From the sequence record PV577657: a DNA stretch of 64,000 nucleotides; one strand, written 5' to 3'. The notes under the pieces were generated by a model. The model was not told the origin of the DNA, made no database searches, and saw only the letters and a list, made by a program, of their open reading frames with translations. This DNA comes from Escherichia phage vB_EcoS_MM-1. Shown piece by piece: positions 9,714 through 64,000 of this stretch. The position numbers and the translations under genes are program-made. Every line of letters starts with the position of its first letter. Position 1 is the stretch's first letter.

Positions 9714-9724
9714 TATAAATGTAC

Positions 9725-9753: not shown

Positions 9754-9783
9754 ATTTATATAAATTAATGAGAGGGTTGCAAA

Positions 9784-10056
9784 GTGAAAAAGATAAGTAT
9801 AAGTACACTTAAACCTTTCCCGTACATCGGACAGCCTCTTATACTTATGTGGGAGGAGAAGATTAATGGGGAAAAGTATACTAAAACTAGAAGTGGGTAT
9901 AAGCTGACTTCACTTCATTACGAAAAAGAAGTATTAGTAGCTGAAATATACTCTCCGTTGTCAGATAGGCTAGTAAAAACTACATATTTGCATCGTTGCA
10001 AAAATTATACATGGCACGGATCCACTAGACAACCCTCATACTGTGAGGCAGAATAA
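9784..10056 (+). CDS. hypothetical protein (GTG start)
   Basis: ORF track. Confidence 0.45.
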   Translation: MKKISISTLKPFPYIGQPLILMWEEKINGEKYTKTRSGYKLTSLHYEKEVLVAEIYSPLSDRLVKTTYLHRCKNYTWHGSTRQPSYCEAE

Positions 10057-22883: not shown

Positions 22884-24702
22884 GACACTAAAATTTAGTA
22901 ACGTTATGTCTTACGGTAAGGACATCGTAATTCATTTCGACAAGAATCCAGTTACTCAACTAATTGGTGGCAATGGGCTAGGGAAATCCACCATCGCTAC
23001 GGTTATCGAGGAATTGTTTTATAACAAGAACTCACGGGGTATTAAGAAGGATGCTCTGTTCTCTTGGTCTTCTCCGAAAAAAGAGTATGATATGCACGCT
23101 TACTTCTCAAAAGATGAAGATGAGTATGAATTGCATAAAGTAGTTAAATCAACTGCTAAAGTAACCCTTATTAAGAATGGAGAAGATATTAGTGGACACA
23201 CGGCGACCCAAACATACAAGATGATTGAAGAAATTATGGGTGGTGACTTCCAAACATTCACCAAACTTATTTATCAATCAGTGGGTTCTAATCTAGACTT
23301 TCTAAAAGCAACAGATGCAACACGTAAGGCTTTTCTTGTCAACTTGTTCAATCAAGAACAGTACAAAGAAATGTCAGAAACTATTAAGGCTGACCGTAAA
23401 GAAATAGCAAATACCTTAAATAATTTGCAGGGCCAAATGGCTGTAATTACGAAAATTCTTAATGGAAAGAATAACTTGGGAACTTTGCAGGAACCTGTAG
23501 AAGTACCGGAGTTTGATGAAGAGCCGTTAGCACAAGAACTTACTGAATCGAAAATTAAGGCGGCATTAGCCAAGTCTCAAGAGGCTAATATTACTAAATT
23601 GCGTAATTTGGACAAAGCTGTACAAGTTGCCGAACAATCTTTCGAGCCTTTCAAAAATTTACCCGCGCCCACTGACCAAAATGAAGAGATCTCGAGTGTT
23701 ACGCGTGACCTAACGATTGTGACCTCACGTGCGAGCGAAGTTAAGAAACGTTATCAGAAGTTCAAGCAAGAGGCTTCAAATACTGAATGTCCTACCTGTG
23801 GTACTCATCTGGATACAACTGCTGCGCAAAAAGCAATGGATATGGCTAGAACAGAATATGATCCTCTGTTCAAAGAGAAGCAATCTCTTGAAGCTAAGCT
23901 AGAACAGTTGAAGAAGGAACAACTTGAGTACGTTGCGTATACTAGAGCAAAGGATGCTTTGGATAAGGCAGTGGTAGCTAGAGACGAGTTCAAAAATTCA
24001 ATGAGTGATGCTTCTTTTGAAGAACTCAATGTGCAAATCCTACAGGTGCAAATCCGACAATTAGAACAGGAAATAGCTGATGGACGTTCTAAGGTTGCAA
24101 TTGCTAAAGAACATAATGCAAATATTGAGTTAGCCAATGCAAAATATAAGGCGAAACTAGAACAGATTGAGAAAGCTGAGGCAGAAATGTCTGAGATTAC
24201 ATCCAAACTGGATGGAGTATCAGAAGCTGTTGCTGATCTCGATATTCTGATTGCTGCATTAAAGAATCTAGTAGGATATAAGCTAGAGCATAGTGTGAAA
24301 GTATTTGAAGAACTTATCAATAAATACCTTTCTATTATGACTGGCGGTAAGTTCGCACTTGGATTTGAACTTGATGAAACGAAATTGCAAGTAGTAATCT
24401 TCAATGATGGAAACCGTACCAGTATGGAGAATTGCTCTACTGGTCAGCAAAGTCGAATCAACCTAGCAACTCTGTTAGCTATTCGAATGCTACTAACATC
24501 TATTAGTAAAGTTAATATTAATCTTCTATTCCTTGATGAAGTAATTAGCTTTATTGATACTAAAGGACTTGACACCCTTGTTGAATTATTAAATGAGGAA
24601 GAAAGTCTAAATTCTATCATTGTTTCTCATGGGCATACGCATCCATTAGCCCATAAGATTACTGTCAAAAAAGATGCAGAAGGATTTTCCTACTTAGAAT
24701 AA
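22864..24702 (+). CDS. SbcC/Rad50-like ATPase
   Basis: Walker A GGNGLGKST, zinc-hook CPTCGT, Walker B LLFLDEV, long coiled-coil middle; ATG 22864 gives the typical MSKITIKTLKF N-terminus. Confidence 0.8.
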   Translation: MSKITIKTLKFSNVMSYGKDIVIHFDKNPVTQLIGGNGLGKSTIATVIEELFYNKNSRGIKKDALFSWSSPKKEYDMHAYFSKDEDEYELHKVVKSTAKVTLIKNGEDISGHTATQTYKMIEEIMGGDFQTFTKLIYQSVGSNLDFLKATDATRKAFLVNLFNQEQYKEMSETIKADRKEIANTLNNLQGQMAVITKILNGKNNLGTLQEPVEVPEFDEEPLAQELTESKIKAALAKSQEANITKLRNLDKAVQVAEQSFEPFKNLPAPTDQNEEISSVTRDLTIVTSRASEVKKRYQKFKQEASNTECPTCGTHLDTTAAQKAMDMARTEYDPLFKEKQSLEAKLEQLKKEQLEYVAYTRAKDALDKAVVARDEFKNSMSDASFEELNVQILQVQIRQLEQEIADGRSKVAIAKEHNANIELANAKYKAKLEQIEKAEAEMSEITSKLDGVSEAVADLDILIAALKNLVGYKLEHSVKVFEELINKYLSIMTGGKFALGFELDETKLQVVIFNDGNRTSMENCSTGQQSRINLATLLAIRMLLTSISKVNINLLFLDEVISFIDTKGLDTLVELLNEEESLNSIIVSHGHTHPLAHKITVKKDAEGFSYLE

Positions 24703-50444: not shown

Positions 50445-52202
50445 TTAGGTAAGGCGTTGAACTGTTACTCTTAATCTAGGTAGAAAAACTGCACTACCTA
50501 AACTTACGTGCATAACTACCCCTAACTCTACATTTCCATTCCCCAGATTTTTAGCAGTATATATAAAACTATTTCTACTTAGGGCATTGTTAGGTGTGTA
50601 TCTAAAAGCAGATGTAGTATGAAAAGGTACTAAATACCCTACTGGTAATGTTAAAATCTGGTGGAATATCGCGTCACCATTACTATAACTATATGCTCTT
50701 CTTCCTTGCACCTGAAACACACCGTTATTCCATGTATTAGCAGGGACACCTGCACAGTTAAGATTACCTGATATAACTTCAGTGGTAAGAATTACTGTAG
50801 CATTGCCACCCGGTATACCTAGCCCAATAGTTGATAAACCAACGTATCTATCTCCTGTTCCTGGGTAGCTGGGGGTAATATCATCTCCCATATAAGAACT
50901 ACCTACATTTCCACCAAAAAGTCGTAATGGAACTGCTGATGGTCCCCAAACAACCCCGTGTTCATTACCGATAGTATTATCATTAGAGTTTACGTACCAT
51001 TGCTTACCAGCTCCGAATTTGTAAATACTAATTTGAGACTTAGCCCCTCCATAGTCCACAGGAGACCATAAACTCCCGTTACTAGAACCTACAAGTTCAC
51101 ACCTTGCGGTGGTATCCCCAAAGGCCCCAGTATATGCTGCATTATTTCCAATATATTCCATATCTGGTCTATAACCTAAGTTACCGAAAGCGTTCTGGTT
51201 AATAAACTTGTATCCAGTATTGGGAAGACTAACCCCTTTAATTATGAAATTAGAAGGAGATATAAGAATATCTGAACCAGTAAAAGGATTACCAGAGATA
51301 CTCATACCACCATTTGAGTATCTTAAATTCAAAACGTACCAAATAACTTTAGTAGGAGTTATGTTATACCAATCTTGTAGTATTGTAGAATCACCAGATT
51401 GATTAGCTAAATTAGTTGTAGAACCCCTACAAACAAACCTATTACCCCCATCATGATACATAGTATTTACATTACCAGGAAGACCTTGTCTTACCCCACC
51501 ATACCCACGTATGTTAGAGTTACAAACATAGAACCAATCGTGCCCTCTGTGTGCTGATCCTAAAGGAGACATCCATCCTGGGTCCCAGTAATTTTGGTTA
51601 TTCCCATCTATAGGTACTGTACTACTATTAGTAGGGAATCCTAACTGTGCAAAAGCTTCTGCAACAGTAACCCCTACTGGAGCTCCTGCACCTGGCCTAA
51701 CTATACCATGATACGTACTATGTAGGGTAGTTCCACCAGTACCATTCCTAGAAATAGATTCTTCATGCCCTATAGATGGATTATAGTTATATGTACCAGA
51801 TGCCAGGCTATTACCAAATGCAAATCCACTAGTCTGGGAAACACTAGCAAAAGATCTAAAAGGATCTGCTTGAGTGGCAACTATAGTTTGACCCACCTTA
51901 CTCTGAGTACCATTAAGAAAAGCTCTGTGAGTACCATTAATCTCAATAGCAGTTAATATAACTCTACCAGGATCGTTAGATTTAATATTTATTATGTCAG
52001 AGGGCATCTGACATACAAAAAACCCATTTCCGGCATTTCCTAACCCAGCCTCATAAGTACCATCAACTAGGACAAATGGCATATCACTATGAAAAATACT
52101 ATTGGCATTTGGACTATAGTGACGATTAATGTCACCACCAGATTCAGTATTTAAAGATAGTACGGTCTTACCATCGCTATATTTTCCAGCGAAAAAACCC
52201 AT
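50445..52202 (-). CDS. receptor-binding tail protein (pb5/Oad-like)
   Basis: 585 aa, Gly/Asn-rich, divergently adjacent to the llp-like lipoprotein as in T5. Confidence 0.6.
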
Positions 52203-52227
52203 ATAATCTCCTATTATAAAAATGTAT

Positions 52228-52256
52228 TTGCTTTCATCCCTCTATTTTGCTATAAT
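52228..52256 (+). promoter_or_regulatory. PN25-like early promoter driving llp
   Basis: TTGCTT, 17 nt, TATAAT, then AGATTCATAAATTAGAAATGGAGAG. Confidence 0.65.
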
Positions 52257-52287
52257 AGATTCATAAATTAGAAATGGAGAGATAAAT

Positions 52288-52554
52288 ATGAAAAAGTTTG
52301 TGATTGCACTAGTTGCCGCAGTTATGTTATCTGGTTGTGCACCTGCTCCCAAACCATTTTGTACTGGATTTGTAAAATCTTTTGGTGGTGCGGGAGAAGA
52401 ACATTACGGCCTCAAGGTTCAAAAAGTTCGTATTAAGGGAGATCGCTTCCCAGTAGTACAGCTCCGTACTAAGTTTGGATGGTGGGATCTCAGTCAGTTT
52501 GACCTTAAATATGGTGATTGTAAATTTAAACTAGAGCAATCTAACTACATGTAA
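52288..52554 (+). CDS. llp: lytic-conversion lipoprotein (Llp-like), receptor-blocking superinfection exclusion
   Basis: Signal peptide with lipobox LSGC; small size; divergent from the receptor-binding gene. Confidence 0.7.
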   Translation: MKKFVIALVAAVMLSGCAPAPKPFCTGFVKSFGGAGEEHYGLKVQKVRIKGDRFPVVQLRTKFGWWDLSQFDLKYGDCKFKLEQSNYM

Positions 52555-52731
52555 TTAGTATAAAGCAAAAAGACATCTAAGTAAACTAAATTTTTTATTT
52601 TTTGGATGGTATATTGGCAGAAACCACTATGTAAGAAAATGAGAAGTCCTTCTAGGAAGTCACAAGCATGGTTGGTTATATACAAATTATAAAATATTTT
52701 AAAATACCATACTCATAGGAGCAAGAAAGAT

Positions 52732-52860
52732 ATGTCAAATAAAAGAAAGAACAGACGCGGAGAAGTGTACGAAGCGTGGATTAATATTTACGGATTTGGT
52801 TTTGTATTATTCCTAATCTTCGTAGGTTTTTGGTTAGCAGCTATGGCGGGGTGGATTTAA
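52732..52860 (+). CDS. small basic protein with one C-terminal transmembrane helix (42 aa)
   Basis: RBS AGGAGCAAGAAAG then ATG; MSNKRKNRRGEVYEAWINIYGFGFVLFLIFVGFWLAAMAGWI. Confidence 0.45.
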   Translation: MSNKRKNRRGEVYEAWINIYGFGFVLFLIFVGFWLAAMAGWI

Positions 52861-53015
52861 TGGAATGGGTAATTATTGGCATATTCGTCTTATTGATACT
52901 TCTCTTTGTAGGCTTACGTGTAATAGATACCTCTGTAACCCAAACAGAAATTAAATTAATGCAGTTGAGTAATAGATTATCTAGAATTGAAACTTTATTA
53001 GAGGAGCGTAAATAA
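52860..53015 (+). CDS. small single-pass membrane protein, paralog 1 (51 aa)
   Basis: ATG overlaps previous stop (TAATGG); MEWVIIGIFVLLILLF...RIETLLEERK. Confidence 0.5.
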   Translation: MEWVIIGIFVLLILLFVGLRVIDTSVTQTEIKLMQLSNRLSRIETLLEERK

Positions 53016-53122
53016 TGGAATGGGTAATTATTGCACTACTGGGGATTGTGATTATTGGGCAATGTATTTTAGATAATTATTTAGCTAGAATTGAAACCTT
53101 ACTATCGGAGAAACGTAAATGA
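53015..53122 (+). CDS. small single-pass membrane protein, paralog 2 (35 aa)
   Basis: ATG overlaps previous stop; MEWVIIALLGIVIIGQ...RIETLLSEKRK. Confidence 0.45.
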   Translation: MEWVIIALLGIVIIGQCILDNYLARIETLLSEKRK

Positions 53123-53313
53123 TGGAAGTGGGAATTACACTAATAGTAATATTAGTCTGGGTAATCCTCATTGTCTCTCGTATAGTGTATCTCCGCCTAA
53201 AAACTCTAGAAGCTCAGGTGAAACAACAACAAGTTATTCTAGAAAAGTTAGTACTACTGCAACGTTGTGATAGCACCCGTATTCTGCAAATTGAGAGGGA
53301 ATTAGATGTTTAG
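53119..53313 (+). CDS. small single-pass membrane protein, paralog 3 (64 aa)
   Basis: ATGA overlap with previous gene; MMEVGITLIVILVWVILIV then amphipathic helix. Confidence 0.5.
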   Translation: MMEVGITLIVILVWVILIVSRIVYLRLKTLEAQVKQQQVILEKLVLLQRCDSTRILQIERELDV

Positions 53314-53551
53314 TATTGTAATTGCTTTTATTATCGGGATACTTGCGGGAGTTTTCGGGACAACTGCGGCAATCAACAAGCATCGTAAATATATTGCGGA
53401 AGTATCGCGGGAGATTGCGGAAAGGGAGCGGAAGTTTGACGAGAAACGTGCGGAGTTTGAGCGGGAGTGGTCGGACGGATCTCGGGCGTCGCGGAAGAGA
53501 TTCCGTGAGTTCAGACCAGAACACAGGTTTGATGACCATTCTATGCGCTAA
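53306..53551 (+). CDS. small membrane protein with Arg/Glu-rich C-terminal tail (81 aa)
   Basis: 8-nt overlap with previous gene; N-terminal TM helix MFSIVIAFIIGILAGVFGTTAA. Confidence 0.5.
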   Translation: MFSIVIAFIIGILAGVFGTTAAINKHRKYIAEVSREIAERERKFDEKRAEFEREWSDGSRASRKRFREFRPEHRFDDHSMR

Positions 53552-53716
53552 TTTGACTTTTGCCAAATTTCATAAGATTACACATGGAGGTGTGTCCAGT
53601 GGGTCGGGGGAGAATACTTAGTCTGCTAACCGCCACCCCCCGTTACTATTATCATGGTAATTGTTTCACCCTGCAATTAAAATGGTTGCAGGGTGAAACA
53701 ATTTCAACTTTAATTA

Positions 53717-54493
53717 TTACGCAACTTTTAATTTCTCGATATATTGTTGCGGGCTGCAACTATATTCTGCGCGTTCTTCCTCGGTCATACCTTCCCAACA
53801 TAATTTCAAACGATCAGCTAGGAATTGATAATCATTATCATCATCGAGGGATTCATCAATAAAGGTTTCACCTATCAATGCCACGCCGATTGATAGAATA
53901 TCGTTAACGGCTTGCGCGTCCAGCGTTTTAAATCCGTATGATGCCGCCGCTGATAGTACACCCTTATGATCATCAATCATTGTAAAATCAGCGTTCGGAT
54001 ATAACTGTTTAAATAATTCAAAATAATAAGATTTATAAACTGCGTCTTTGCTGTGGTATATCTCGCTAACTTTATCAGCCTCAAAATATTTATGCAGTGT
54101 ATCGCGAGAAAACACGCGGATATTACTATCACCACGACCGCGCAAGCCTTGTTTGCGCAAATAATAATAGTCCGACTTGCTCATTAGTCGAGCGGTACAA
54201 ATAATGTTTAAAGTATTTGCGTCATTCATGCACTGGCGCATATATGTAACAAGGGGCAATAAAGTATCTTGCATTATTAAATCATGTTTGCAGGCTTCAT
54301 TTTTATACTTATTTAAATCTAAATTGCCCTCGCTATCAAAGCAAGGCGCTACACGATGGAAAGAATTAATGATAGTGCCGTCCAGATCCCAAATCATGAC
54401 GCGGGAAATATGCGGGAAATTACGGGTAATATTCATTTTAACTTGATTCATTTTGTTACGTTCTCCATTAAAGGGATTTAGTTTATCCAGCAT
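53717..54493 (-). CDS. dmp: HAD-family 5'-deoxyribonucleotidase-like protein (Dmp-like)
   Basis: HAD motif I MIWDLDGTIINS; first gene of the pre-early-like block. Confidence 0.65.
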   Translation of the reverse strand: MLDKLNPFNGERNKMNQVKMNITRNFPHISRVMIWDLDGTIINSFHRVAPCFDSEGNLDLNKYKNEACKHDLIMQDTLLPLVTYMRQCMNDANTLNIICTARLMSKSDYYYLRKQGLRGRGDSNIRVFSRDTLHKYFEADKVSEIYHSKDAVYKSYYFELFKQLYPNADFTMIDDHKGVLSAAASYGFKTLDAQAVNDILSIGVALIGETFIDESLDDDNDYQFLADRLKLCWEGMTEEERAEYSCSPQQYIEKLKVA

Positions 54494-54531
54494 TACCCGC
54501 TATTTATAAGCGGGTAATAATAAATCAACTA

Positions 54532-54924
54532 TTAAAGACCATAAGCCAACGCATCAGCGATAAAACTAACATCCTCACCGGATACGCTAGAACGAATCCC
54601 CGCGCAGGTGTATACCTTTGCGCTCGCTAGCTGATCATCAAGGCAAGCGGGGCAAGGCGCGACAACTGCAAAGGCTAGACCAGATTTTACCGCGTCAATA
54701 ATGATTGTTTCTTGTTTCATCGTGTCAACATAAACGCCTTTTGCTTTAATATGGCTGGTTAGTTTGCCTTGCGTATAGGCAAAGGTAGTAACCTGTAAAG
54801 CGTCATTGAAATCTAATAATTCATCAATAACGTGCCCCGCCTCGACGTGGTAACGTTCACCATTAGAATAAACCAGAACAATGGAAGACTGAGCGCGATC
54901 GAATGGAATATTTTGCTTTTTCAT
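54532..54924 (-). CDS. hypothetical pre-early protein
   Basis: ORF track; terminator hairpin downstream. Confidence 0.5.
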   Translation of the reverse strand: MKKQNIPFDRAQSSIVLVYSNGERYHVEAGHVIDELLDFNDALQVTTFAYTQGKLTSHIKAKGVYVDTMKQETIIIDAVKSGLAFAVVAPCPACLDDQLASAKVYTCAGIRSSVSGEDVSFIADALAYGL

Positions 54925-54963
54925 ACTTATAAAACTCCAATTAGTTTAATATAGGGATTTAAT

Positions 54964-55254
54964 TTATTTGATAATAATCTGCATCTGGTACGGCGTTAAT
55001 TCACCGTTTACGGGTAAATTATTATCGCTTAGCCACTCATAAAAAGCGCCATCATCATCAAAAGGAACAACATCATTATCACGATAATCGATGGAAATAA
55101 TGCCATCCGTATTAGTTTTGGCGGCTAGGATAGGCCCAAAGCTGTAAACTTTATCGGATTCCATTTCATCCGGTGAGATGAATGCTTTTTCGTCCAATGT
55201 TTTGGGTAATGTAACTTTCATTTTTTGACTCCTGTAATAGCGGCTATATTTCAA
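54964..55254 (-). CDS. hypothetical pre-early protein
   Basis: ORF track. Confidence 0.5.
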   Translation of the reverse strand: MKYSRYYRSQKMKVTLPKTLDEKAFISPDEMESDKVYSFGPILAAKTNTDGIISIDYRDNDVVPFDDDGAFYEWLSDNNLPVNGELTPYQMQIIIK

Positions 55255-55274
55255 GCCGCTAGGGGATAATTTAA

Positions 55275-56939
55275 TTACGCGAAAAATTTACCGTTTTTAA
55301 AGTCAATCAAAGTGCGCTGACCGTTTGCATAGGTAATTAAATGCGTTTGCGTCCAGCTTGACGCGCCAACGTTGTAACCCATATCCAGACTACCAGCTAC
55401 GCCAGCGGTATAAACGCCACCGTAAATGCTAGCGGTATGGGTGTGTCCCGTGTTTAGCTTGCCCAATTTCTTAAACTGTTTAGGATTGCCACGACTGCCG
55501 TTAATGCCGTTGTGACCGTGTACGCCGCACTCAATGCCTGCAATCTTGAAAGATTGATCAGTGGTTAGGAAAATGGCGTTAAACTCACAACCTGCAACCT
55601 TGCGCAGCGCATAATCTAGCACGTTAAAAGTATCATCATGATCACTGATCGCCGCGTAAATTGCAGCATTCAGGCGGTGATATAGTTCGGCGTTGGCTGG
55701 ATCGTCTTTGATGTTAGCATTACGATCATCTAACCAGCGGGATAGCGCCAAATCGTGATTAGATTCAACAATGATTGTTTGAGAGAAATCACGTTCCATT
55801 GATTCCAGCACGCGCCCCGTATCGATAAGATCATCCAGAACTTTATCACGTCCAGCGGCATACTGTTTTGCTAGGAATACACCGGATGCACGGTTATGAT
55901 GATTGCGCGATGTAAAATCATGCACGTCATGGATAAACTGATATTTTGGTTTAAGAATATCAAGCAAGCTATTTTCGCCAGCCCATGACGCAACGGCACA
56001 ATCATCATCTAATTTTTCCGCATGAATATCGCCATACTGCAAGCCTAAAACATGCCCCGATGTTTCATAGCATCCGGCAGGAGTAGCGCAAACATTCAGA
56101 TCATAAAACACCCCGCTTTCGTCCATTGTTTCAAGCTGGCGAACAAAAAATTCCCCGTCCTCGTCGAACTCAACAATCAGCGCGCCGAAGTTATGCAGAG
56201 CTTCCGCTTTTTGTCCTGCTTTCTGCTGAATATAGTTTTTAAGCGTTGCCGTTCCGGTTGAATACATACGGCGCACTACTTCACCTTTTAAAGCTGGCAC
56301 GCTTTCAGCGGTGATTTTAGCGTGACCAATTGCCAGCCCCTCAATATTGAGCGCCGTTGCAGTTTCTGCAAATCCTGAAAGCGGGTAATCTGCGGTTGGC
56401 AAAACATTAATTTCAGCCATGAAAGCAAAACGGCGGTTATTTAAAAACACGTTTTTGCTGCAAATATATTTATCAAATGCGGGATCGTATTTGATACCGT
56501 CTGCACCTTCTTCATTCTGGAAGCCATTTTTATTATAAATATACTTAGAAACAAGCAAATCAGCACCGATATATTCAGCGAATTTTTCCAGACTTGCTAA
56601 AAAGTTTTTATGCGGGAAAGTATTATTTTGAATCGACGTAATAATAAAGCGTTTACCCTGTTTTACTTCCCATTGCTCAACCGTACTAGAAACAATTCCC
56701 GCCGCTTCTGGGCGCTCATCGTTTTTAATGGCTTTTGCTACTTTTGCCGCTTTCGGTTTAGCTGGTTTATTTGCTTCCAGCCAGTCGCAGATAGCGGTTG
56801 AATGCTTCGTTGTATCGTAGACCGCTTTTGATATATCGTCGCAGACTTCCAGTTTAGTAGCGCGCAGACGTTTACCATAGAAATTAAAGTCAGCGGCCAT
56901 TTTCAGGATAACGGTTTGTTTTTCTGCGGAAATAATCAT
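55275..56939 (-). CDS. A1: A1-like pre-early protein, metallophosphatase fold
   Basis: 554 aa (T5 A1 is 556); phosphoesterase motifs GDIHAE and GHTHTASI. Confidence 0.7.
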   Translation of the reverse strand: MIISAEKQTVILKMAADFNFYGKRLRATKLEVCDDISKAVYDTTKHSTAICDWLEANKPAKPKAAKVAKAIKNDERPEAAGIVSSTVEQWEVKQGKRFIITSIQNNTFPHKNFLASLEKFAEYIGADLLVSKYIYNKNGFQNEEGADGIKYDPAFDKYICSKNVFLNNRRFAFMAEINVLPTADYPLSGFAETATALNIEGLAIGHAKITAESVPALKGEVVRRMYSTGTATLKNYIQQKAGQKAEALHNFGALIVEFDEDGEFFVRQLETMDESGVFYDLNVCATPAGCYETSGHVLGLQYGDIHAEKLDDDCAVASWAGENSLLDILKPKYQFIHDVHDFTSRNHHNRASGVFLAKQYAAGRDKVLDDLIDTGRVLESMERDFSQTIIVESNHDLALSRWLDDRNANIKDDPANAELYHRLNAAIYAAISDHDDTFNVLDYALRKVAGCEFNAIFLTTDQSFKIAGIECGVHGHNGINGSRGNPKQFKKLGKLNTGHTHTASIYGGVYTAGVAGSLDMGYNVGASSWTQTHLITYANGQRTLIDFKNGKFFA

Positions 56940-57029
56940 AGTAATAAAACTCCATTAAAGGGATTAGATTAATAACGGCAATATTGCCAAATATAACGCC
57001 TCAAATAATAGGCGTTATAATTTGCAACA

Positions 57030-57227
57030 TTAATTTAAAGGCACTAGGCTAGAACTAACACCACAAGCAACGGCAGCGATAAAACAAAGCAAGCCCAAAC
57101 GTTTTGCTAATTTAGATTTACGTTTAAAATAATATGAATCTAAATCATTTTGAAAATAAGCGAACAATAACGAGGGCGCCATAATAAACAAGCCTAGAAT
57201 TAATGATTCAGTAGGATAAAAGATCAT
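57030..57227 (-). CDS. small hydrophobic protein
   Basis: ORF track; two hydrophobic segments. Confidence 0.4.
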   Translation of the reverse strand: MIFYPTESLILGLFIMAPSLLFAYFQNDLDSYYFKRKSKLAKRLGLLCFIAAVACGVSSSLVPLN

Positions 57228-57284
57228 TTTAAAAACTCCTGATTTAAGGGAAGAAAATAACTATCGCTAAACAGTTATATTATT

Positions 57285-57315
57285 GCCCCCTCACTAAAAA
57301 AAGGGGGGCAAGGTA
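57285..57315 (-). terminator. hairpin terminator after the A2-like gene
   Basis: GCCCCCT-cactaaaaaa-AGGGGGGC. Confidence 0.55.
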
Positions 57316-57321
57316 TAACTA

Positions 57322-57729
57322 TTATTCGCCTGCGGCTTGTTTTACTTCCTCGGCAACGCCTAACAATTGCGCTACTGCGTCCAGCGTTTCAAGTTTTGCA
57401 CTTTCAAGGCTTGCCAGATCATCGGCATCTTTGATAATGCCGGAATCGATAGCGTGTTTTGCAATAACGCGTACATAATGAGCTTTGCGGATTGAACTAC
57501 CGCCGCCAACTTTGCGGGGCTTACCGCTTTTTTGATATGCTTTTGCGCTGGTCAATTTTGACCGAACGGATACGGGAGAAGCCGCGCCTACTGCTTTTGC
57601 AATCTCTTTCAGGCCGTCGCTATTTGCGAAATCTAAACCGTTTTCATTAATTAACTGTTGATACATGGAAACAGCTTTCTGAGTGTTTTCTTCATTCCAT
57701 GCGAATTTTGCGGTTTTAGCGTTAGTCAT
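57322..57729 (-). CDS. A2: A2-like pre-early DNA-binding protein
   Basis: 135 aa, basic centre (KSGKPRKVGGGSSIRKAH), adjacent to A1-like gene. Confidence 0.55.
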   Translation of the reverse strand: MTNAKTAKFAWNEENTQKAVSMYQQLINENGLDFANSDGLKEIAKAVGAASPVSVRSKLTSAKAYQKSGKPRKVGGGSSIRKAHYVRVIAKHAIDSGIIKDADDLASLESAKLETLDAVAQLLGVAEEVKQAAGE

Positions 57730-57825
57730 GATGTAACTCCTATTAGTTTAATTTAAGGGATTAGATTAACTTAATGTTAATCGTTATATCCCCCTGAAAT
57801 AAGGGGATATAAAGTTAACACTAAT

Positions 57826-58077
57826 TTACAATACAGCTTCCCATTTTTCGTTGCGTTGAACAACCTTTACAACATCGCCGGATTTAACGCGAACGCTAAA
57901 AACGGGCTTGCCGTTGTTACTACGTTCATTTTCAGCGTATACCGCGTCGATTGTATCGAACGGCATAAGCGCCGCACCTTTAATACGTTCGGCCTTTCCG
58001 GTTAATTCATCCGTTTTAGTAACGAAAGGAATGAAGACGAATTGACCAACTTTCGGCGCGGTAATAACGTTTTGCAT
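57826..58077 (-). CDS. hypothetical pre-early protein
   Basis: ORF track; hairpin TATATCCCC-N9-GGGGATATA downstream. Confidence 0.5.
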   Translation of the reverse strand: MQNVITAPKVGQFVFIPFVTKTDELTGKAERIKGAALMPFDTIDAVYAENERSNNGKPVFSVRVKSGDVVKVVQRNEKWEAVL

Positions 58078-58307
58078 AATATAAACTCCTAGTTATTTGG
58101 GGATTGTTCCGCATTACCTGCTAGAAAGTAACAGCAGGTAATAAGTAACAATCCGCTCGCCAATATAATCAATTTTAAAGAACTCCACGTAGGCCGCTAT
58201 ATCCCGTTAGGGGGCGGGATGCATTATGGTAAGCACCGACCGTCAAATTTTATCAAGTTATCGCTCTTATCGAACTGGGTACATCTTAAAACCTATCGGC
58301 TAGGTTG

Positions 58308-58511
58308 TCAAACAATTTTTTGCAATTTTTTATGATTTTCTTTTAGGTCAATCATAATATTTCGCCAGATCATTTCCAGACCTTGCTGGCGACCTTTCTT
58401 GTACTGCGTGAATCTATATCTTACTGATCTTTGAGCTACTGTCAACAAATTTTTTGTTTTGCTATCTAGTGCCTTAATAGGCTTGCCAGTGATCAAAAGC
58501 GTTTGTTTCAT
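58308..58511 (-). CDS. small basic protein
   Basis: RBS AAGGAA on the minus strand before ATG. Confidence 0.45.
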   Translation of the reverse strand: MKQTLLITGKPIKALDSKTKNLLTVAQRSVRYRFTQYKKGRQQGLEMIWRNIMIDLKENHKKLQKIV

Positions 58512-58956
58512 ATCGTCGATTCCTTATAATGAATAAGTTTACCGCCGATAGGCTTTAAGATGTACCCAATTTTTAAAGAGCGTGGCGGTAAACTTCCCGC
58601 CGTGTAGTTCGTCATTGCCGCCCTACGAGATAAATAATAGGGGATTCCCGAAAATGGCGCAACCTTATTTTTGTAAAGAAATGTAAAGGTAAAACTCACC
58701 GGACACCGTGCGGCGACGGCCTAAAATTAAAAGAAACGGGCGCGCGAATACCACAAAATAAAGCAAATAGGCAAGTAATTTTTTCATTTATATTTGCTTT
58801 GCCCTACTTGACAAAATCTAAAAAGCTCGTGGTAACGATAAACGGCTTATCCCCTTATGATGGGATGGCTAAAAACTTTATTGCGTTCTGGAGCGTTTTA
58901 GGCGCATTCTAGCCTTGTTGATAACTTATCCCCAAAAGCAAAAATGAAATTTTCCT

Positions 58957-58993
58957 AGTTATCCACTTGACTTTTATTTTCCAGTGGATAACT
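58957..58993. promoter_or_regulatory. inverted pair of DnaA-box-like sites
   Basis: AGTTATCCACT ... AGTGGATAACT flanking TGACTTTTATTTTCC. Confidence 0.5.
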
Positions 58994-59255
58994 ACTTATT
59001 TTATGAAATAAATTAATTGACTTTTATTTGTTAGTATGCATCGGAAAGATAGCAGACTAATAATTGCTAGAATGATAATCATGCTGGTGGATTGTAACGA
59101 CCTGAATTATTAGCAGACTATTAATCACGGAAAAATCTCATTAGCCAACTAACTATTTCATGATATATAATATACATATAAATTAATGAGAAATAATAAC
59201 TATAAGAAATCATCTAGCTAAGTGAGAACCACTATCATTTAAGTTATACACAAAG

Positions 59256-59264
59256 TTATCCACA
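59256..59264 (+). promoter_or_regulatory. consensus DnaA box
   Basis: TTATCCACA exact 9-mer. Confidence 0.5.
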
Positions 59265-59333
59265 GCACTTTTTGACTTGACACGATAGGCGGCGATATAA
59301 GGACTTTTACACAGACTTATCTACAGGTTATTC

Positions 59334-59353
59334 CACTGTATAAATATACAGGG
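59334..59353. promoter_or_regulatory. LexA (SOS) box-like palindrome
   Basis: cACTGTATAAATATACAGgg = CTGT-N8-ACAG with AT-rich core. Confidence 0.55.
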
Positions 59354-59618
59354 TAAAAAGGTAGTGTTAACAACTGCAATCAATTTTAAGCGGCTTAAAT
59401 CGCATTCTAACGAGCTAAACGCTGCGGGGTAATATTAAAGTAAAGCCTTAATGCGTCGCCCTGGTGGCTTCGCCGTGGTTTGCTCTTTATTGCACCGCTG
59501 CGCGGTTAGCATAAAAATAGGCGCTAGGCAAGGAAAATAAAAAGGTAAAATAATATTTGCCTATGCTAGAAATTTACCTTTATCATTCACTCACCGATTA
59601 ACGAGGGAGGCCGAACAA

Positions 59619-60398
59619 ATGAGGCTTTATAAACCTGATAATGCCACCGTTTTAAAAGGTGCATTGCGCAACCTGCTGGATGGTAGCAAGTCAACCAGCA
59701 TTAAACATTTTATTAACAAGATTGAAACTATTCATCAAAACTTTTTTGATGATTATGACGCTTATGATATGGATAGTTTTCTACCCTTATATAGACAAGG
59801 GGCAACGCTAGTTTTATATAATCGGGATTGCCATATCTTTACAGGCAGGGGAGCGGGGCCGGATACCGATTTTATTGTTGCGCAGGGTAATAATATTGTT
59901 GCGTATCATAGCAATTCAGGCCGTCAATCATTTAATATAAATAGTTTTGAGCTTATTGGACTTGATCTGATAAATGGACTTTCTAGCATTGAGGGATTTT
60001 TAGATGTTATCTGGAAGTATTTACCCGCTGGATGGCATAAGCCGGATAACGACGGATCTCAATATACCGGTATAATGGCTTTTGATGGCGACGGTAATTT
60101 TTTGTTACCACGGGAGCTATACCCATATATTTATGATGGGGATATAGAAAGCGCTGGTTTTTCTTTCTGGAAAGATGAAGATCAGATTATTGACAGCGTA
60201 GAAAACCATGCTGTAAATTCTAACACTCAAAGCGTTAACACTCAAACTACTGAAAACAAAGGAAAAAACACTATGACCAAGATTGCTAACATCGTTGCCG
60301 CTAATAAATCCGCCGTTGTAAATGCTGCAAAACTGGAAGCGGGTAAAATTGCACTGACTCAAATCACGAAAGTAGCGGCTAAAAAGCACCGTTCATGA
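59619..60398 (+). CDS. hypothetical protein
   Basis: Strong RBS GAGGGAGG; 259 aa. Confidence 0.6.
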   Translation: MRLYKPDNATVLKGALRNLLDGSKSTSIKHFINKIETIHQNFFDDYDAYDMDSFLPLYRQGATLVLYNRDCHIFTGRGAGPDTDFIVAQGNNIVAYHSNSGRQSFNINSFELIGLDLINGLSSIEGFLDVIWKYLPAGWHKPDNDGSQYTGIMAFDGDGNFLLPRELYPYIYDGDIESAGFSFWKDEDQIIDSVENHAVNSNTQSVNTQTTENKGKNTMTKIANIVAANKSAVVNAAKLEAGKIALTQITKVAAKKHRS

Positions 60399-60628
60399 TT
60401 AAAGGCTATATTGATACGCCGATTGGTCGAGTAGTGATTGCTAACCTGCTAAGTGTAGCGGTTGACCAGTACGCACCGACTAACCAGAAAGCGAAAGCGG
60501 TAGCAGGGGCGGCTATGGAAGCGGCAATGCTGGAAATGGTGCAAAGTTTTAACATCGCTGAAATGATTGATGAAATGGTGAAAGGTATTGATATTTCTAC
60601 TTTTACCACTAGCACCGAAATCGAGTAA
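60395..60628 (+). CDS. hypothetical protein
   Basis: ATGA overlap with previous gene; terminator hairpin AGTGGGGA-ttatt-TCCCCACT after stop. Confidence 0.5.
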   Translation: MIKGYIDTPIGRVVIANLLSVAVDQYAPTNQKAKAVAGAAMEAAMLEMVQSFNIAEMIDEMVKGIDISTFTTSTEIE

Positions 60629-60693
60629 TAATATTTAGTGGGGATTATTTCCCCACTTTACTACTCCCTTGTTAATTAATAGGAGGCTAACTA

Positions 60694-61188
60694 ATGGCTG
60701 AGGAAAAATACGGCTTCTCGCTAGGAGAAGTGAGCACGGCTAAACATGATATGATCATTTTAGTCGATTGTCATACTGGCTATTGCGGAGAAGGGAACAC
60801 CGAAGAATACTTTGTTCCTGCTGGTACGGATCTGGACGCTTTCGCTCATGAAATGGCTATTGATAATGCTTCTCGTTTTGGTAGCGATGGCTATGAAGAC
60901 GAAGAAACTGGCGAATGGTATGAAAATGAAAACGTATATGCAAGCCTTTATCATTATCAGCTAAGTAAATCCGGCACATATGTAAACGGCGGCGATCCTA
61001 TTAATTCCGTCATGAAATTAATTATTAAATATGGTGGCGTCGAGATAATTGATAACAAAGCGGTAATATACGCAAACCGATTAAAACAGCTTGTTTATAT
61101 TCCTGATAGTACCCGATGGGATGAATACGCTGTTTTGCATGACGAATTGAAACGATGTTTCAATATTGAATCCCTGCAAGTAGTCTAA
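60694..61188 (+). CDS. hypothetical acidic protein
   Basis: Strong RBS AGGAGG; 164 aa. Confidence 0.6.
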   Translation: MAEEKYGFSLGEVSTAKHDMIILVDCHTGYCGEGNTEEYFVPAGTDLDAFAHEMAIDNASRFGSDGYEDEETGEWYENENVYASLYHYQLSKSGTYVNGGDPINSVMKLIIKYGGVEIIDNKAVIYANRLKQLVYIPDSTRWDEYAVLHDELKRCFNIESLQVV

Positions 61189-61293
61189 TGTAAAGTTTTG
61201 TAAAGGTCGCCTTTTATGGTGGCCTTTTTTGTTATAATGCTTTTACACCAAAACGGTGGATTGAAAATTTTCCCAAAAATTTGGAGGCTTAAA

Positions 61294-61524
61294 ATGGTTG
61301 CTTATTCTTCTGCTAGTCATCTGTTTACCGCGCAAGGCTGGGTATCTAATCGTGCTGTCATCTATGAAATGGTGCAGGAGTTCGGCATTGCTAAAACTTA
61401 TAATACCATTCAGGAACTATATAACGCCGATAAAATCGATCAGCAAACGGCTGGCTTTTTACTGGATACCCTGAAAGCTGAACATTGCACTAAAAAACAA
61501 GCCGCTAAAATTGTTTTAATGTAA
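61294..61524 (+). CDS. hypothetical protein
   Basis: ATG 61294 with GGAGG RBS (track start 61216); terminator CGGGGCG-ttacttt-CGCCCCG downstream. Confidence 0.5.
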   Translation: MVAYSSASHLFTAQGWVSNRAVIYEMVQEFGIAKTYNTIQELYNADKIDQQTAGFLLDTLKAEHCTKKQAAKIVLM

Positions 61525-61573
61525 TTAATAACGGGGCGTTACTTTCGCCCCGATAACTAGGAGGCTATCACAA

Positions 61574-61723
61574 ATGGTTATTTTTCGATCTATTTTAGCG
61601 GGTATCTTGGGCGCTATTTTATCGTTATTTGCGATAGCTTTCGGCGTTCACGCTGTTATTATTGGCGCTGGCATTGCTGCGTTTTCTTATCTGCTGGGCT
61701 GCATGACTAGTAAAGGAGAATAA
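61574..61723 (+). CDS. small two-helix hydrophobic protein (49 aa)
   Basis: RBS AGGAGG; Gly/Ala-rich TM segments; below ORF-track length cutoff. Confidence 0.45.
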   Translation: MVIFRSILAGILGAILSLFAIAFGVHAVIIGAGIAAFSYLLGCMTSKGE

Positions 61724-61725
61724 AA

Positions 61726-61938
61726 ATGATCCGCAACGTTTCCCTTGCACGTTCGAAAGGCTTTAAGCTGGTGGATGTTAACACGTTCGAGTGGGAAGAT
61801 TGTAAAATCGAATATGTAGCACGTAACAAAAATGCCTTTCGTGTTACCGAGAAAAAATTTGATAAGCGCGGCAACGTGATAGCTGAAACAGTTAAACATT
61901 TTGCCACCTTTTACGCTGCTTTCCGTGGGGTATTATGA
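61726..61938 (+). CDS. hypothetical protein
   Basis: RBS AAAGGAGAA. Confidence 0.5.
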   Translation: MIRNVSLARSKGFKLVDVNTFEWEDCKIEYVARNKNAFRVTEKKFDKRGNVIAETVKHFATFYAAFRGVL

Positions 61939-62057
61939 TTCAGCAAATTAAAACGGCTTTTCGTTTTTGGGGCGTCCTGCCTTCAATTGGTTTTATTCTG
62001 ATAATTATTAGTCAGCTAATGATCATCGGCGGAACTATTTGGGAGCTATGCAAATGA
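61935..62057 (+). CDS. small hydrophobic protein (40 aa)
   Basis: ATGA overlaps at both ends. Confidence 0.35.
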   Translation: MIQQIKTAFRFWGVLPSIGFILIIISQLMIIGGTIWELCK

Positions 62058-62398
62058 TAATTTATGAAGGCAATCGCTTTGTTGCTAATTGCCGTCCGGC
62101 ATTATTAGCAAACTATTTAAACCAGCTTTCCCCAGCTTATAAGGGCGTTATTAATATTTATGAGGGAAAGGCGCATTATAAAATTAATGCGGTCGTTGCC
62201 CGTGAACTAGCATTTCAATTTTTGACCTTTGCATCTTGTGACGTTCAGGTTATGGGTGAGGCATTAATCGCGGAAAATGAAGAGGATTTTATTAATATTT
62301 TCCGTAAGGTATGCACTGAGCGCTTGATAATGAAAGGCGCGTATATTCAATCAACTGCGGAAAGTATTGAAACAGCATTTCGAAAGGTGGCGCAATGA
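62054..62398 (+). CDS. hypothetical protein
   Basis: ATG 62054 (track start TTG 62039); 114 aa. Confidence 0.5.
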   Translation: MIIYEGNRFVANCRPALLANYLNQLSPAYKGVINIYEGKAHYKINAVVARELAFQFLTFASCDVQVMGEALIAENEEDFINIFRKVCTERLIMKGAYIQSTAESIETAFRKVAQ

Positions 62399-62498
62399 GA
62401 TTATATATTTTCGTTGGTAATGTTAAGGCAGCTAATGATTCCGCTGGTGGCGACAACGTTCGCCACCATTGGCAAAAATATATTTACTAGGAGTTATT

Positions 62499-62606
62499 AT
62501 GTCTGGTTTAATGTTTACCTTATTAGTAGTTTATAGCATAATTACGGCAGGAATAGTAACTTATGTTACTAGTAAAATTTGGCCGGGAATATATGGTAAT
62601 TTTTAA
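62499..62606 (+). CDS. small hydrophobic protein (35 aa)
   Basis: RBS AGGAG; single TM helix. Confidence 0.35.
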   Translation: MSGLMFTLLVVYSIITAGIVTYVTSKIWPGIYGNF

Positions 62607-62621
62607 TAACGGAGCGTTATT

Positions 62622-62825
62622 ATGAGCAATAAAATTATTGTAACCAAAATCAGTACAATGGTTGATGTTTTTTACGTGCCAGATACGCCGGAGAATCGGC
62701 AAGCGGTCGAGCGGGGCGAATATGATAAAGTGATTTATGATCACGATGGTTATTATCAGTATTTGGTGGATTCCTACGGGGAGGAGGAGAAGATCACGCA
62801 TCGACTACCGGAGGAGGGTTTATGA
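62622..62825 (+). CDS. hypothetical acidic protein
   Basis: RBS ACGGAG; 67 aa. Confidence 0.5.
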   Translation: MSNKIIVTKISTMVDVFYVPDTPENRQAVERGEYDKVIYDHDGYYQYLVDSYGEEEKITHRLPEEGL

Positions 62826-62980
62826 AACGATGGTTTAATCACTGGTACAAGCGGTTTTTAGTACGCCGTCGCAAGTCTAGGCATCAAGATGAGTGGCGGG
62901 AGTGGGCAAAGCGTAACGGTTGCCCGCTACTATAATAATCACGGGGCGCAACTATCGGGAAGTGCCCCCAATTCTCAAAT

Positions 62981-63001
62981 GAGAATCATTCTCATTTGAC
63001 C
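62981..63001. repeat. perfect 21-bp palindrome
   Basis: AAATGAGAAT-C-ATTCTCATTT; partial copies recur at the ends of the 67-bp repeats. Confidence 0.8.
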
Positions 63002-63192
63002 GCGCCCGCGATGGTTAGCCTGCTAATGATTAGGGTGTTACGTGTCGCCTTGTGTGATCGTTAGCGAGCTAACTAATTTTCAAGCCTCCTCCAATTTTGC
63101 CCTTGTTTTAGTATCTCCACCAAAATTAAACGCGTTAGAATGCGATCTAGGACGTTTTAACGCTATATTAGAATTATTCACTGCGTAGGAAT

Positions 63193-63212
63193 ACTGTATA
63201 TTTATACAGTAG
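63193..63212. promoter_or_regulatory. LexA (SOS) box-like palindrome
   Basis: TACTGTATATTTATACAGTA. Confidence 0.6.
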
Positions 63213-63219
63213 GATAAGC

Positions 63220-63302
63220 TGTGGATAAGTCTGTTAATAACACCCCAAAATGGCTAGGATTCTGTCAAGTCAAATCGTGCTGTTAATAAGTCTGTGGATA
63301 AC
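63220..63302. promoter_or_regulatory. two consensus DnaA boxes within an inverted motif pair
   Basis: TGTGGATAA at 63220-63228 and 63294-63302, each linked to GTCTGTTAATAA. Confidence 0.5.
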
Positions 63303-63317
63303 TTAAATAATAGTGTT

Positions 63318-63488
63318 TCTCACTTCCGTTCTTAAATACGAATCACTATCATTTGCGTTCCACTTTCTAAATGAGAATCATTCTGCTTTTTAAAGGAGAA
63401 TCGTTTCACTTCCTGAATAATTCTCACTTCCATTCTTAAATGCGAATTATTATCATTCTCATTCCGCTTTTTAAATGAGAATCATTCT
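63318..63488. repeat. two about 67-bp direct repeats, each ending in the AAATGAGAATCATTCT half-palindrome
   Basis: Units at 63318-63384 and 63422-63488 are near-identical. Confidence 0.75.
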
Positions 63489-63511
63489 CATTATCATTCG
63501 CATTCAGGCGA

Positions 63512-63529
63512 GCAGGGCAATTGCCCTGC
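63512..63529. repeat. perfect 18-bp palindrome
   Basis: GCAGGGCAA-TTGCCCTGC. Confidence 0.7.
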
Positions 63530-63535
63530 GCTTTT

Positions 63536-63758
63536 GTGCAAATCCGACATTGCTCCACGGGTGTTACGTGCGGGCGTGTATGTGCGAATCCGACAATTTT
63601 TGGTAGTGTGCAAATCCGACCCGAAAAATTTTTATAGTGTGCAAATCCGACAATGAATTTTCCTAAAAACTCCAGCAATCACGAACTGCGTTCGAATCCT
63701 GTGGGGTATGTGCAAATCCGACACGGTTTTTCTAGGATTAAGATGTGCGAATCCGACA
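63536..63758 (+). repeat. array of six direct copies of GTGC(A/G)AATCCGAC(A), irregularly spaced, each followed by a T-rich tract
   Basis: Copies at 63536, 63582, 63608, 63638, 63710 and 63745. Confidence 0.8.
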
Positions 63759-64000
63759 AGATTTTTGTGACTTCGATTGGAGGGTGTGTGATTGTGTGAG
63801 TTTGGGGAGAAGTTGAGAGAGCGAGAAAAATTTGAGGGAACTGCGGGAGGGGCGCATGTTTGGTGCGGAGCACCTGATTTGCGGGGATTTTGGGGAAGAG
63901 TTGAGAAGATTTGGGTTAATTTGAGATTAGTGCAGAAAAAGTAAAATTTTATTAGCTAAATGGAGCAAAATAGCTTGACAAGTGAAAATTCTTGTGGCTC

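What the first reader, a model, noticed from the sequence alone, without database searches (positions are those of the whole stretch)
53717..64000. Window appears to run from the late module into a terminal-repeat-like pre-early block
The order Dmp-like, A1-like, A2-like, followed by a repeat-rich region with DnaA boxes, matches the T5 terminal repeat that is injected first. Its position directly after the late genes suggests this is the right-hand repeat copy or a collapsed repeat in the assembly. The metallophosphatase motifs in the A1-like protein (GDIHAE, GHTHTASI) fit a nuclease role in host DNA degradation.
Basis: partly seen in the sequence, partly recalled or inferred. Interest (0 to 1): 0.35.

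Follow-up and report, generated by a model that had tools for sequence, protein, structure and literature searches.

The report
Right terminal repeat of T5-like phage

Summary
The feature is already known.

- **What the window is:** the last 64 kb of a Tequintavirus (T5-like) genome. It is 99.986% identical to Escherichia phage vB_EcoS_MM-2 (PV577658.1), whose record annotates an LTR and an RTR.
- **Extent of the repeat:** window 53594-64000 (10,407 bp). This starts 123 bp upstream of the finding's start.
- **Ends:** its first base aligns with base 1 (±1) of the T5 and MM-2 left repeats. Its last base, which is the window's last base, is the last base of the T5 and MM-2 genomes. So this is a true right-hand copy, not a collapsed repeat.
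- **Genes:** Dmp, A1 and A2 are 98%, 94% and 99% identical to T5's, in the same order and orientation.
- **Non-coding parts:** they reproduce Davison's published T5 layout. Two 132-nt inverted arms each hold four DnaA-type boxes in 3-bp-spaced pairs. There are also two DRE repeats, six DRD repeats and the conserved nick site.
- **A1 as a metallophosphatase:** all five signature motifs are invariant across 29 homologues. Structure searches return only metallophosphoesterases at the top (LpxH, Mre11), but weakly (best E 5e-3). Pfam finds nothing.

The parts
53594..64000 (.). Right terminal repeat (RTR), 10,407 bp; a duplicate of the first-step-transfer (pre-early) DNA
   Evidence: Aligns with MM-2 LTR 1-10299 and RTR 107525-117823, and with T5 LTR 1-10219 and RTR. 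Both boundaries fall on the same bases.
53717..54451 (-). dmp, deoxynucleoside-5'-monophosphatase (the ORF stays open to an upstream ATG at 54493); carries the HAD-type DLDGT motif
   Evidence: 98% identical to T5 Dmp over 244 aa. Matches phrog_415.
54532..54924 (-). T5.002 homologue, function unknown
   Evidence: 94% identical by tblastn. Matches phrog_4576.
54964..55254 (-). Small gene in the position of T5.003 but not similar to it
   Evidence: Matches phrog_8297. No T5.003 hit. The T5 DNA alignment breaks at 54973-55219.
55275..56939 (-). A1: essential pre-early protein, predicted metallophosphoesterase and host-DNA degradation factor
   Evidence: 94% identical to T5 A1. Matches phrog_1745. 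Residues G303 D304 H306, H337 D338 D341, N394 H395 D396, H474 and G498 H499 H501 are invariant. Fold hits are LpxH and Mre11.
57030..57227 (-). T5.005 homologue, small two-transmembrane protein
   Evidence: 95% identical. Matches phrog_4820.
57322..57729 (-). A2: essential DNA-binding pre-early protein
   Evidence: 99% identical to T5 A2. Matches phrog_1725.
57826..58077 (-). T5.007 homologue (DUF7177)
   Evidence: Pfam PF23801, E 1.8e-40. 87% identical to T5.007.
58308..58511 (-). hdi (T5.008), host division inhibitor homologue
   Evidence: 87% identical over 67 aa. Matches phrog_4718.
58508..58615 (-). T5.009 homologue (35 aa)
   Evidence: 94% identical.
58616..59618 (.). Non-coding divergent control region. 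It equals T5 Repeat Regions 1+2 fused, because hegG is absent. It contains IRC-spacer-IRD at 59220-59351, with four DnaA-type boxes and a LexA-like palindrome at 59336-59351.
   Evidence: T5 5419-6018 (hegG) has no counterpart. The layout is as described in Davison, 10.1101/866236.
59619..60628 (+). T5.011 homologue (DUF7566), split into 259 aa + 77 aa by a 1-base deletion in an A-run at about 60376-60380
   Evidence: The gene is intact in T5 and in ECOP18.
60694..61188 (+). Extra 164-aa gene that T5 lacks
   Evidence: Matches phrog_6741. Window 60632-61185 does not align to T5. Present in MM-2 and ECOP18.
61294..61938 (+). T5.012 (61294-61524), T5.013 (61574-61723) and T5.014 (61726-61938) homologues
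   Evidence: 83%, 65% and 99% identical by tblastn. PHROG matches.
62054..62398 (+). T5.015 homologue (by AY543070 numbering this is the Ung-dependent nickase)
   Evidence: 93% identical over 114 aa. Matches phrog_4379.
62622..62825 (+). T5.017 homologue
   Evidence: 88% identical.
62826..64000 (.). Injection-stop-signal region / Repeat Region 3. Its elements are: IRD'-spacer-IRC' at 63194-63325 (four DnaA-type boxes, LexA-like palindrome at 63194-63209); DRE repeats at 63317-63384 and 63421-63488; a hairpin at 63512-63529; the site homologous to the T5 major nick at 63531/63532; six DRD copies at 63536-63757; and the genome terminus at 64000.
   Evidence: Collinear with T5 9317-10219 at 88% identity.

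Best explanation
Window 53594-64000 is the right terminal repeat of a linear Tequintavirus (T5-like) genome. It is an exact direct duplicate of the leftmost 10.4 kb.

From published T5 work (not tested here): the left copy is the first-step-transfer DNA. It enters the cell first and pauses at the injection-stop region. From host sigma-70 promoters in a central divergent control region it expresses two operons.
- Leftward operon: hdi, T5.007, A2, T5.005, A1 and dmp.
- Rightward operon: T5.011 to T5.017.

A1, a predicted two-metal phosphoesterase, drives host DNA degradation. Together with the DNA-binding protein A2 it allows the rest of the genome to enter. Dmp dephosphorylates the released dNMPs.

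The right copy seen here enters last. Its likely role is terminal redundancy for replication, concatemer formation and packaging, rather than early expression.

Shown here: sequence identity, boundaries, gene order and repeat architecture. Inferred from T5 literature: every functional step.
For: - The whole window is 99.986% identical to PV577658.1 53932-117823. That record annotates LTR 1-10299 and RTR 107525-117823, and the two copies are identical.
- The repeat's first base aligns with T5/MM-2 base 1. The window's last base is the last base of both genomes.
- Dmp, A1 and A2 are 98%, 94% and 99% identical to T5's. 14 of the 17 T5 pre-early genes map in the same order and orientation, plus a 19-residue remnant of T5.016.
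- The T5 record labels this block 'first-step-transfer DNA' and 'right terminal repeat; identical with left TR'.
- The non-coding architecture matches Davison's description: 131/132-nt inverted arms, 8 DnaA-type boxes in pairs spaced by 3 bp, DRE x2 and DRD copies.
- Tool-given offsets of earlier notes put the DRD array, the palindrome field and the DnaA-box region of the same genome at about 9,941, 9,359 and 5,099 from its left end. These are exactly their offsets within this RTR.
- A1 function: the preprint 10.64898/2026.04.02.716235.
Against: - So neither the second copy nor 2x depth nor physical ends could be seen directly for this genome.
- The evidence for the left copy is a sister record plus coordinate offsets of earlier notes.
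- The record's repeat copies could have been placed by the depositor by homology to T5 rather than by terminus mapping.
Confidence: 0.95

Rival explanations
1. Collapsed repeat. The assembly holds a single copy of the repeat in a circularly permuted contig, and the block merely lies between the late and early genes.
For: Many database records of T5-like phages have this form. One example is ECOP18 (111,345 bp), where the same block sits internally between the receptor-binding gene and the early genes.
Against: - The window ends on the exact terminal base of T5 and MM-2 and does not continue into early genes.
- The sister record has two identical copies.
- Offsets of earlier notes place the same arrays near the left end of the same genome.
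- The inferred record length of 118,039 equals MM-2's length plus 2 x 108, the extra bases found in this repeat copy. This step is an inference about how the windows are tiled.
Confidence: 0.02
2. The second copy is an in-silico duplication. The depositor assembled one copy and pasted it at both ends by analogy with T5, so the exact boundaries are borrowed, not measured. The biology (a T5-type terminal repeat) would still hold.
For: - LTR and RTR of the sister record are identical to the base.
- The boundaries coincide to within 1 base with those of T5. That is what homology-based trimming would give.
Against: Identical repeats and conserved termini are also what real T5-like genomes show. The T5 record itself states 'identical with left TR'. 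Nothing here discriminates between the two.
Confidence: 0.12
3. The DnaA-box clusters mark a replication origin rather than part of the injection-stop/terminal-repeat architecture.
For: Eight DnaA-type boxes in oriC-like 3-bp-spaced pairs.
Against: According to Davison's paper, T5 origins map near the genome centre and replication genes are not expressed during first-step transfer. The boxes sit in two inverted arms that flank the rightward pre-early operon, as in all T5-like phages.
Confidence: 0.03

Closest known systems
Bacteriophage T5 terminal repeats (AY543070: LTR 1-10219, RTR 111532-121750), i.e. the FST pre-early region with the injection stop signal
   Same: - Same boundaries, to the base at the right end and within 1 base at the left.
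- Same gene order and orientation.
- Dmp, A1 and A2 are 94-99% identical.
- Same inverted arms with DnaA boxes, DRE and DRD repeats and nick-site block.
- 82-91% DNA identity in the aligned segments.
   Different: [quoted passage not shown]
- T5.003 is replaced by an unrelated small gene.
- T5.016 is reduced to 19 codons.
- There is an extra 164-aa gene at 60694-61188.
- T5.011 is frameshifted.
- The repeat is 10,407 bp against 10,219 bp in T5.
Escherichia phage vB_EcoS_MM-2 (PV577658.1), annotated LTR/RTR
   Same: 99.986% identical over the whole window, with the same gene set, including the split T5.011.
   Different: Relative to the window, MM-2 lacks 107 bp (window 63591-63697, two DRD copies) between two CGAATCC heptamers. 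It also lacks one G in the DnaA box at 63220-63228. The window keeps the T5-like arrangement.
Calcineurin-like metallophosphoesterases (Mre11/SbcD nucleases, LpxH), as the fold class of A1
   Same: - The motifs GDxH, (H)D..D, NHD, H and GHxH occur in canonical order and are invariant in 29 homologues.
- The top 21 Foldseek PDB hits of the C-terminal domain model are all of this superfamily.
   Different: - No Pfam or PDB sequence-level match.
- Best Foldseek E is 5e-3 and TM is at most 0.47.
- A1 carries about 290 extra N-terminal residues: a helical bundle plus a beta-rich domain.

Membership tests
Tequintavirus long direct terminal repeat (FST / pre-early block) | The same roughly 10-kb sequence is present at both genome ends in direct orientation | tested here: met
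   Indirect for this genome. The 99.986%-identical record has LTR identical to RTR. Tool offsets of earlier notes put the same arrays 5.1-9.9 kb from the left end of the same genome. The own genome could not be read.
Tequintavirus long direct terminal repeat (FST / pre-early block) | Repeat boundaries coincide with the physical termini known for T5 | tested here: met
   Window 53593/53594 aligns with T5/MM-2 base 1. Window 64000 is the last base of T5 and MM-2.
Tequintavirus long direct terminal repeat (FST / pre-early block) | Pre-early gene set dmp - A1 - A2 on one strand and a divergent second operon | tested here: met
   14 of the 17 T5 pre-early genes map in order and orientation, plus a 19-residue remnant of T5.016.
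Tequintavirus long direct terminal repeat (FST / pre-early block) | Injection-stop region with IRD'-spacer-IRC', its inverted partner IRC-spacer-IRD, 8 DnaA-type boxes, and DRE and DRD repeats | tested here: met
   compared with the description in 10.1101/866236.
Tequintavirus long direct terminal repeat (FST / pre-early block) | About 2x read depth over the repeat and read ends at its boundaries | not testable with these tools
Tequintavirus long direct terminal repeat (FST / pre-early block) | Single-strand nick at about 99.5% of the genome, inside the repeat | not testable with these tools
   Only the sequence could be checked. The T5 nick position 9748/9749 maps to 63531/63532, inside a 52-nt block identical to T5.
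Calcineurin-like metallophosphoesterase superfamily (A1) | Five metal-binding motifs in canonical order (DxH, GD/D, GNHD/E, H, GHxH) | tested here: met
   G303-D304-x-H306, H337-D338..D341, S393-N394-H395-D396, H474 and G498-H499-x-H501 are all invariant in 29 sequences down to 41% identity.
Calcineurin-like metallophosphoesterase superfamily (A1) | Match to the family's sequence profile (Pfam Metallophos) | tested here: not met
   No Pfam hit for A1 or for any of 29 homologues at E up to 1. No PDB sequence or profile hit to a metallophosphoesterase.
Calcineurin-like metallophosphoesterase superfamily (A1) | Metallophosphoesterase fold | tested here: inconclusive
   The AF2 model of residues 290-554 has pLDDT 89. 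The top 21 Foldseek PDB hits are all LpxH, Mre11, MPPED2 or related phosphatases, but the best E is 5e-3, probability 0.97 and TM at most 0.47. The full-length model gives weaker hits of the same class.
Calcineurin-like metallophosphoesterase superfamily (A1) | Metal-dependent phosphoester (nuclease) activity | not testable with these tools
   The literature shows A1 is necessary and sufficient for host DNA degradation in vivo. Activity of the purified protein is still untested.

The most novel reading that the evidence does not exclude
Each of the two 132-nt DnaA-box arms ends in a perfect LexA-operator-like palindrome: CTGTATAAATATACAG at 59336-59351 and CTGTATATTTATACAG at 63194-63209. At one mismatch allowed, 0.21 sites are expected by chance in the whole 64-kb window, and these two are the only exact matches. 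If host LexA and DnaA both bind there, they could bracket the rightward pre-early operon. They might then contribute to the injection pause or to shut-off of pre-early transcription. That would make the T5 injection-stop signal a host-protein-dependent composite site. I verified only the presence and rarity of the sites, not binding or conservation.
Probability: 0.12. Interest if true: 0.5.

Novelty: already known. Interest (0 to 1): 0.06.

Why it matters
It matters only for correct annotation.
- The block is a duplicate of the left-end pre-early region, so its genes should not be counted as extra functions.
- Depth or variant analyses over it must allow for two copies.

Nothing here changes what is known about T5-type two-step DNA injection. 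The small differences from T5 and from the sister isolate add to the published evidence on which pre-early elements are dispensable. These differences are the frameshifted gene 011, the absent hegG and a 107-bp change in the DRD array.

Tried and rejected
- **Own genome:** I asked for it, to look for the left copy directly. None is held.
- **A1 by sequence:** Pfam on A1 and on 29 homologues gave no metallophosphatase hit, only HTH domains at the N-termini of distant homologues. PDB searches by single sequence and by profile found nothing meaningful; the single 0.0027 hit to a dehydroquinase is a short 'SNH(D/E)' coincidence.
- **A1 by structure:** Foldseek with the full-length A1 model gave only weak hits (best E 0.05). 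Cropping to the C-terminal domain improved this, but not to significance at 1e-3.
- **Dmp:** the PDB search found nothing.
- **RNA:** Rfam on 52000-64000 gave no family.
- **Origin-of-replication reading of the DnaA boxes:** considered and rejected on published T5 data.
- **Promoter/terminator scan:** counts are close to shuffled expectation and were not used as evidence.
Full report
**What the window is**

A megablast of 53000-64000 against the phage collection found 496 records. Almost all are T5-like phages of Escherichia and Salmonella.

The best match is Escherichia phage vB_EcoS_MM-2 (PV577658.1, Tequintavirus, 117,823 bp). Its record annotates an LTR at 1-10299 and an RTR at 107525-117823.

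Aligning the whole window to MM-2 53932-117823 gives 99.986% identity over 63,620 bases. The unique part (window 1-53593) has the same length in both genomes. All 108 extra bases of the window lie inside the repeat.

By the MM-2 annotation the window runs as follows:
- early replication genes, 1-26.7 kb, + strand;
- the late structural module, 26.8-52.2 kb, - strand, ending with terminase and the receptor-binding protein;
- llp plus five tiny membrane-protein genes, 52.3-53.55 kb;
- the repeat.

**Boundaries**

MM-2 LTR base 1 aligns with window 53594. T5 (AY543070) base 1 aligns with 53593.

The last 120 bases of the window are identical to the last 120 of MM-2. They are collinear with the last 120 of the T5 LTR and RTR, ending on the same ...GTGGCTC.

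The repeat is thus 53594-64000, or 10,407 bp. The finding's start (53717) is only the stop codon of dmp, which lies at position 124 of the repeat exactly as in T5.

**Right copy or collapsed copy?**

The window stops on the terminal base of the repeat. In single-copy, circularly permuted assemblies such as ECOP18, the same block is internal and is followed by the early genes.

In MM-2 the two copies are letter-for-letter identical.

The window's own genome is not held. The findings index does give tool-computed offsets for earlier notes on the same genome. Those notes cover a DRD array, a palindrome field and a DnaA-box region.
- Another window's coordinates are offset by 22,039 from mine. This suggests that my window starts at base 54,040 of a 118,039-bp record. 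That is my inference about the tiling.
- On that basis the three notes lie at about 9,941, 9,359 and 5,099 from the left end.
- These are exactly the offsets of the same elements inside this repeat (63534, about 62952 and about 58692).
- 118,039 equals MM-2's length plus 2 x 108.

I treat this as supporting, not independent, evidence.

**Genes**

| T5 gene | Result in the window |
|---|---|
| Dmp | 98% identical |
| A1 | 94% identical |
| A2 | 99% identical |
| T5.002, .005, .007, hdi (.008), .009, .011-.015, .017 | found in T5 order and orientation |
| hegG (T5.010) | absent |
| T5.003 | no hit; an unrelated phrog_8297 gene is in its place |
| T5.016 | reduced to 19 codons |

Other differences from T5:
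- A 164-aa gene (phrog_6741) sits at 60694-61188, where T5 has none.
- The T5.011 homologue is split by a 1-base deletion in an A-run (A5 against A6) at about 60380. MM-2 shares the split. ECOP18 and T5 do not.

**Non-coding architecture**

It reproduces what Davison (bioRxiv 10.1101/866236) describes for T5-like phages.
- A 132-nt inverted repeat has arms at 59220-59351 and 63194-63325, 77% complementary. This corresponds to IRC-spacer-IRD and IRD'-spacer-IRC'.
- Each arm holds four DnaA-type boxes in two pairs separated by 3 bp. Arm 1 reads TTATACACA-AAG-TTATCCACA ... TTTTACACA-GAC-TTATCTACA. Arm 2 reads TTATCCACA-GAC-TTATTAACA ... TTATTAACA-GAC-TTATCCACA.
- All three exact TTATCCACA sites of the 64 kb lie in the repeat. 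Five of the nine TTWTNCACA sites lie in these 264 nt.
- Downstream come two 68-nt DRE repeats (63317-63384 and 63421-63488) and a GC hairpin (63512-63529).
- Next is the site homologous to the T5 major nick (T5 9748/9749 maps to 63531/63532), inside a 52-nt block identical to T5.
- Last are six co-oriented GTGCRAATCCGAC (DRD) copies at 63536-63757.
- The whole 63100-64000 stretch is collinear with T5 9317-10219.

**A1 as metallophosphatase**

The quoted strings are there.

Sequence evidence:
- In an alignment of 29 homologues down to 41% identity, the invariant residues are G303-D304-H306, H337-D338-D341, N394-H395-D396, H474 and G498-H499-H501. This is the canonical five-motif series of calcineurin-like phosphoesterases.
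- Sequence profiles do not see it. Pfam gave nothing for A1 or any homologue. PDB sequence and profile searches gave nothing relevant.

Structure evidence:
- The full-length AlphaFold model has pLDDT 86. Its best PDB hits are mostly metallophosphoesterases, at E 0.05 or worse.
- A model of residues 290-554 has pLDDT 89. It gave 21 top hits that are all of this superfamily: LpxH, Mre11, MPPED2 and protein phosphatases. The best E is 5e-3, probability 0.97 and TM at most 0.47.

So the fold assignment is consistent but not statistically strong.

A 2026 preprint (10.64898/2026.04.02.716235) calls A1 a predicted metallo-phosphatase. It shows A1 is essential and sufficient for host DNA degradation in vivo, and says that activity of the purified protein remains to be tested.

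**Verdict**

The block is the right-hand copy, not a collapsed repeat. The feature is already known and the interest is low.

The only loosely novel items are side observations, listed separately: the LexA-like palindromes at the outer end of each DnaA-box arm, the DRD-array length difference from the sister isolate, and the frameshifted gene 011.

Noticed in passing
window 59336-59351 and 63194-63209: Two perfect LexA-operator-like palindromes (CTGTAT-N4-ATACAG) sit at the outer end of each 132-nt DnaA-box arm. They are the only exact matches in 64 kb. With one mismatch allowed the window has 4 matches, against 0.21 expected by chance. Earlier notes of this scan flagged the same sites.
   Followed up: partly
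window 59619-60628: The homologue of T5 gene 011 (toxic in E. coli according to the 2026 preprint) is split into 259 + 77 aa by a 1-base deletion in an A-run at about 60376-60380. The sister phage MM-2 shares the split. The gene is intact in T5 and ECOP18. It could be a real inactivation, a homopolymer sequencing error or a slippage site.
   Followed up: partly
window 63591-63697 and 63223: Relative to this window, the 99.986%-identical phage MM-2 lacks 107 bp (two DRD copies), bounded by two CGAATCC heptamers. It also lacks one G inside the exact DnaA box at 63220-63228. The window keeps the T5-like arrangement. So either the DRD copy number in the injection-stop region varies between near-identical isolates, or MM-2's assembly collapsed a repeat.
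   Followed up: partly
window 24031-24058: Two adjacent DRD-like 13-mers (GTGCAAATCCTAC and GTGCAAATCCGAC) lie inside the SbcC-like gene, far from the terminal repeat.
   Followed up: no
A1 homologues P0064, P0071, P0073, P0076, P0086, P0096: Distant A1 homologues (about 45-49% identity over 86-88% of A1) carry N-terminal helix-turn-helix domains (HTH_23, HTH_7, CENP-B_N). Several sit on contigs of about 45 kb, far smaller than T5-like genomes. The A1 family may therefore extend beyond Demerecviridae, and A1's own N-terminal three-helix bundle may be a degenerate HTH.
   Followed up: no
window 61726-61938 versus 62054-62398: The PHROG label 'endonuclease nicking abasic sites generated by host Ung' is attached to the 70-aa T5.014 homologue (phrog_4227; it is also used in the MM-2 record). 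The homologue of T5.015 by AY543070 numbering is the 114-aa gene at 62054-62398 (phrog_4379, 'unknown'). One of the two labels seems off by one gene.
   Followed up: partly
window 50482-52695: The receptor-binding protein (585 aa) and the adjacent lipoprotein gene do not align to T5's oad/llp at the DNA level.
   Followed up: no
window 53717-54493: The dmp ORF is annotated in the sister record as 'polynucleotide kinase' with a start 14 codons upstream of the T5 start. The protein is 98% identical to T5 Dmp from M15 and shows the HAD motif DLDGT.
   Followed up: partly
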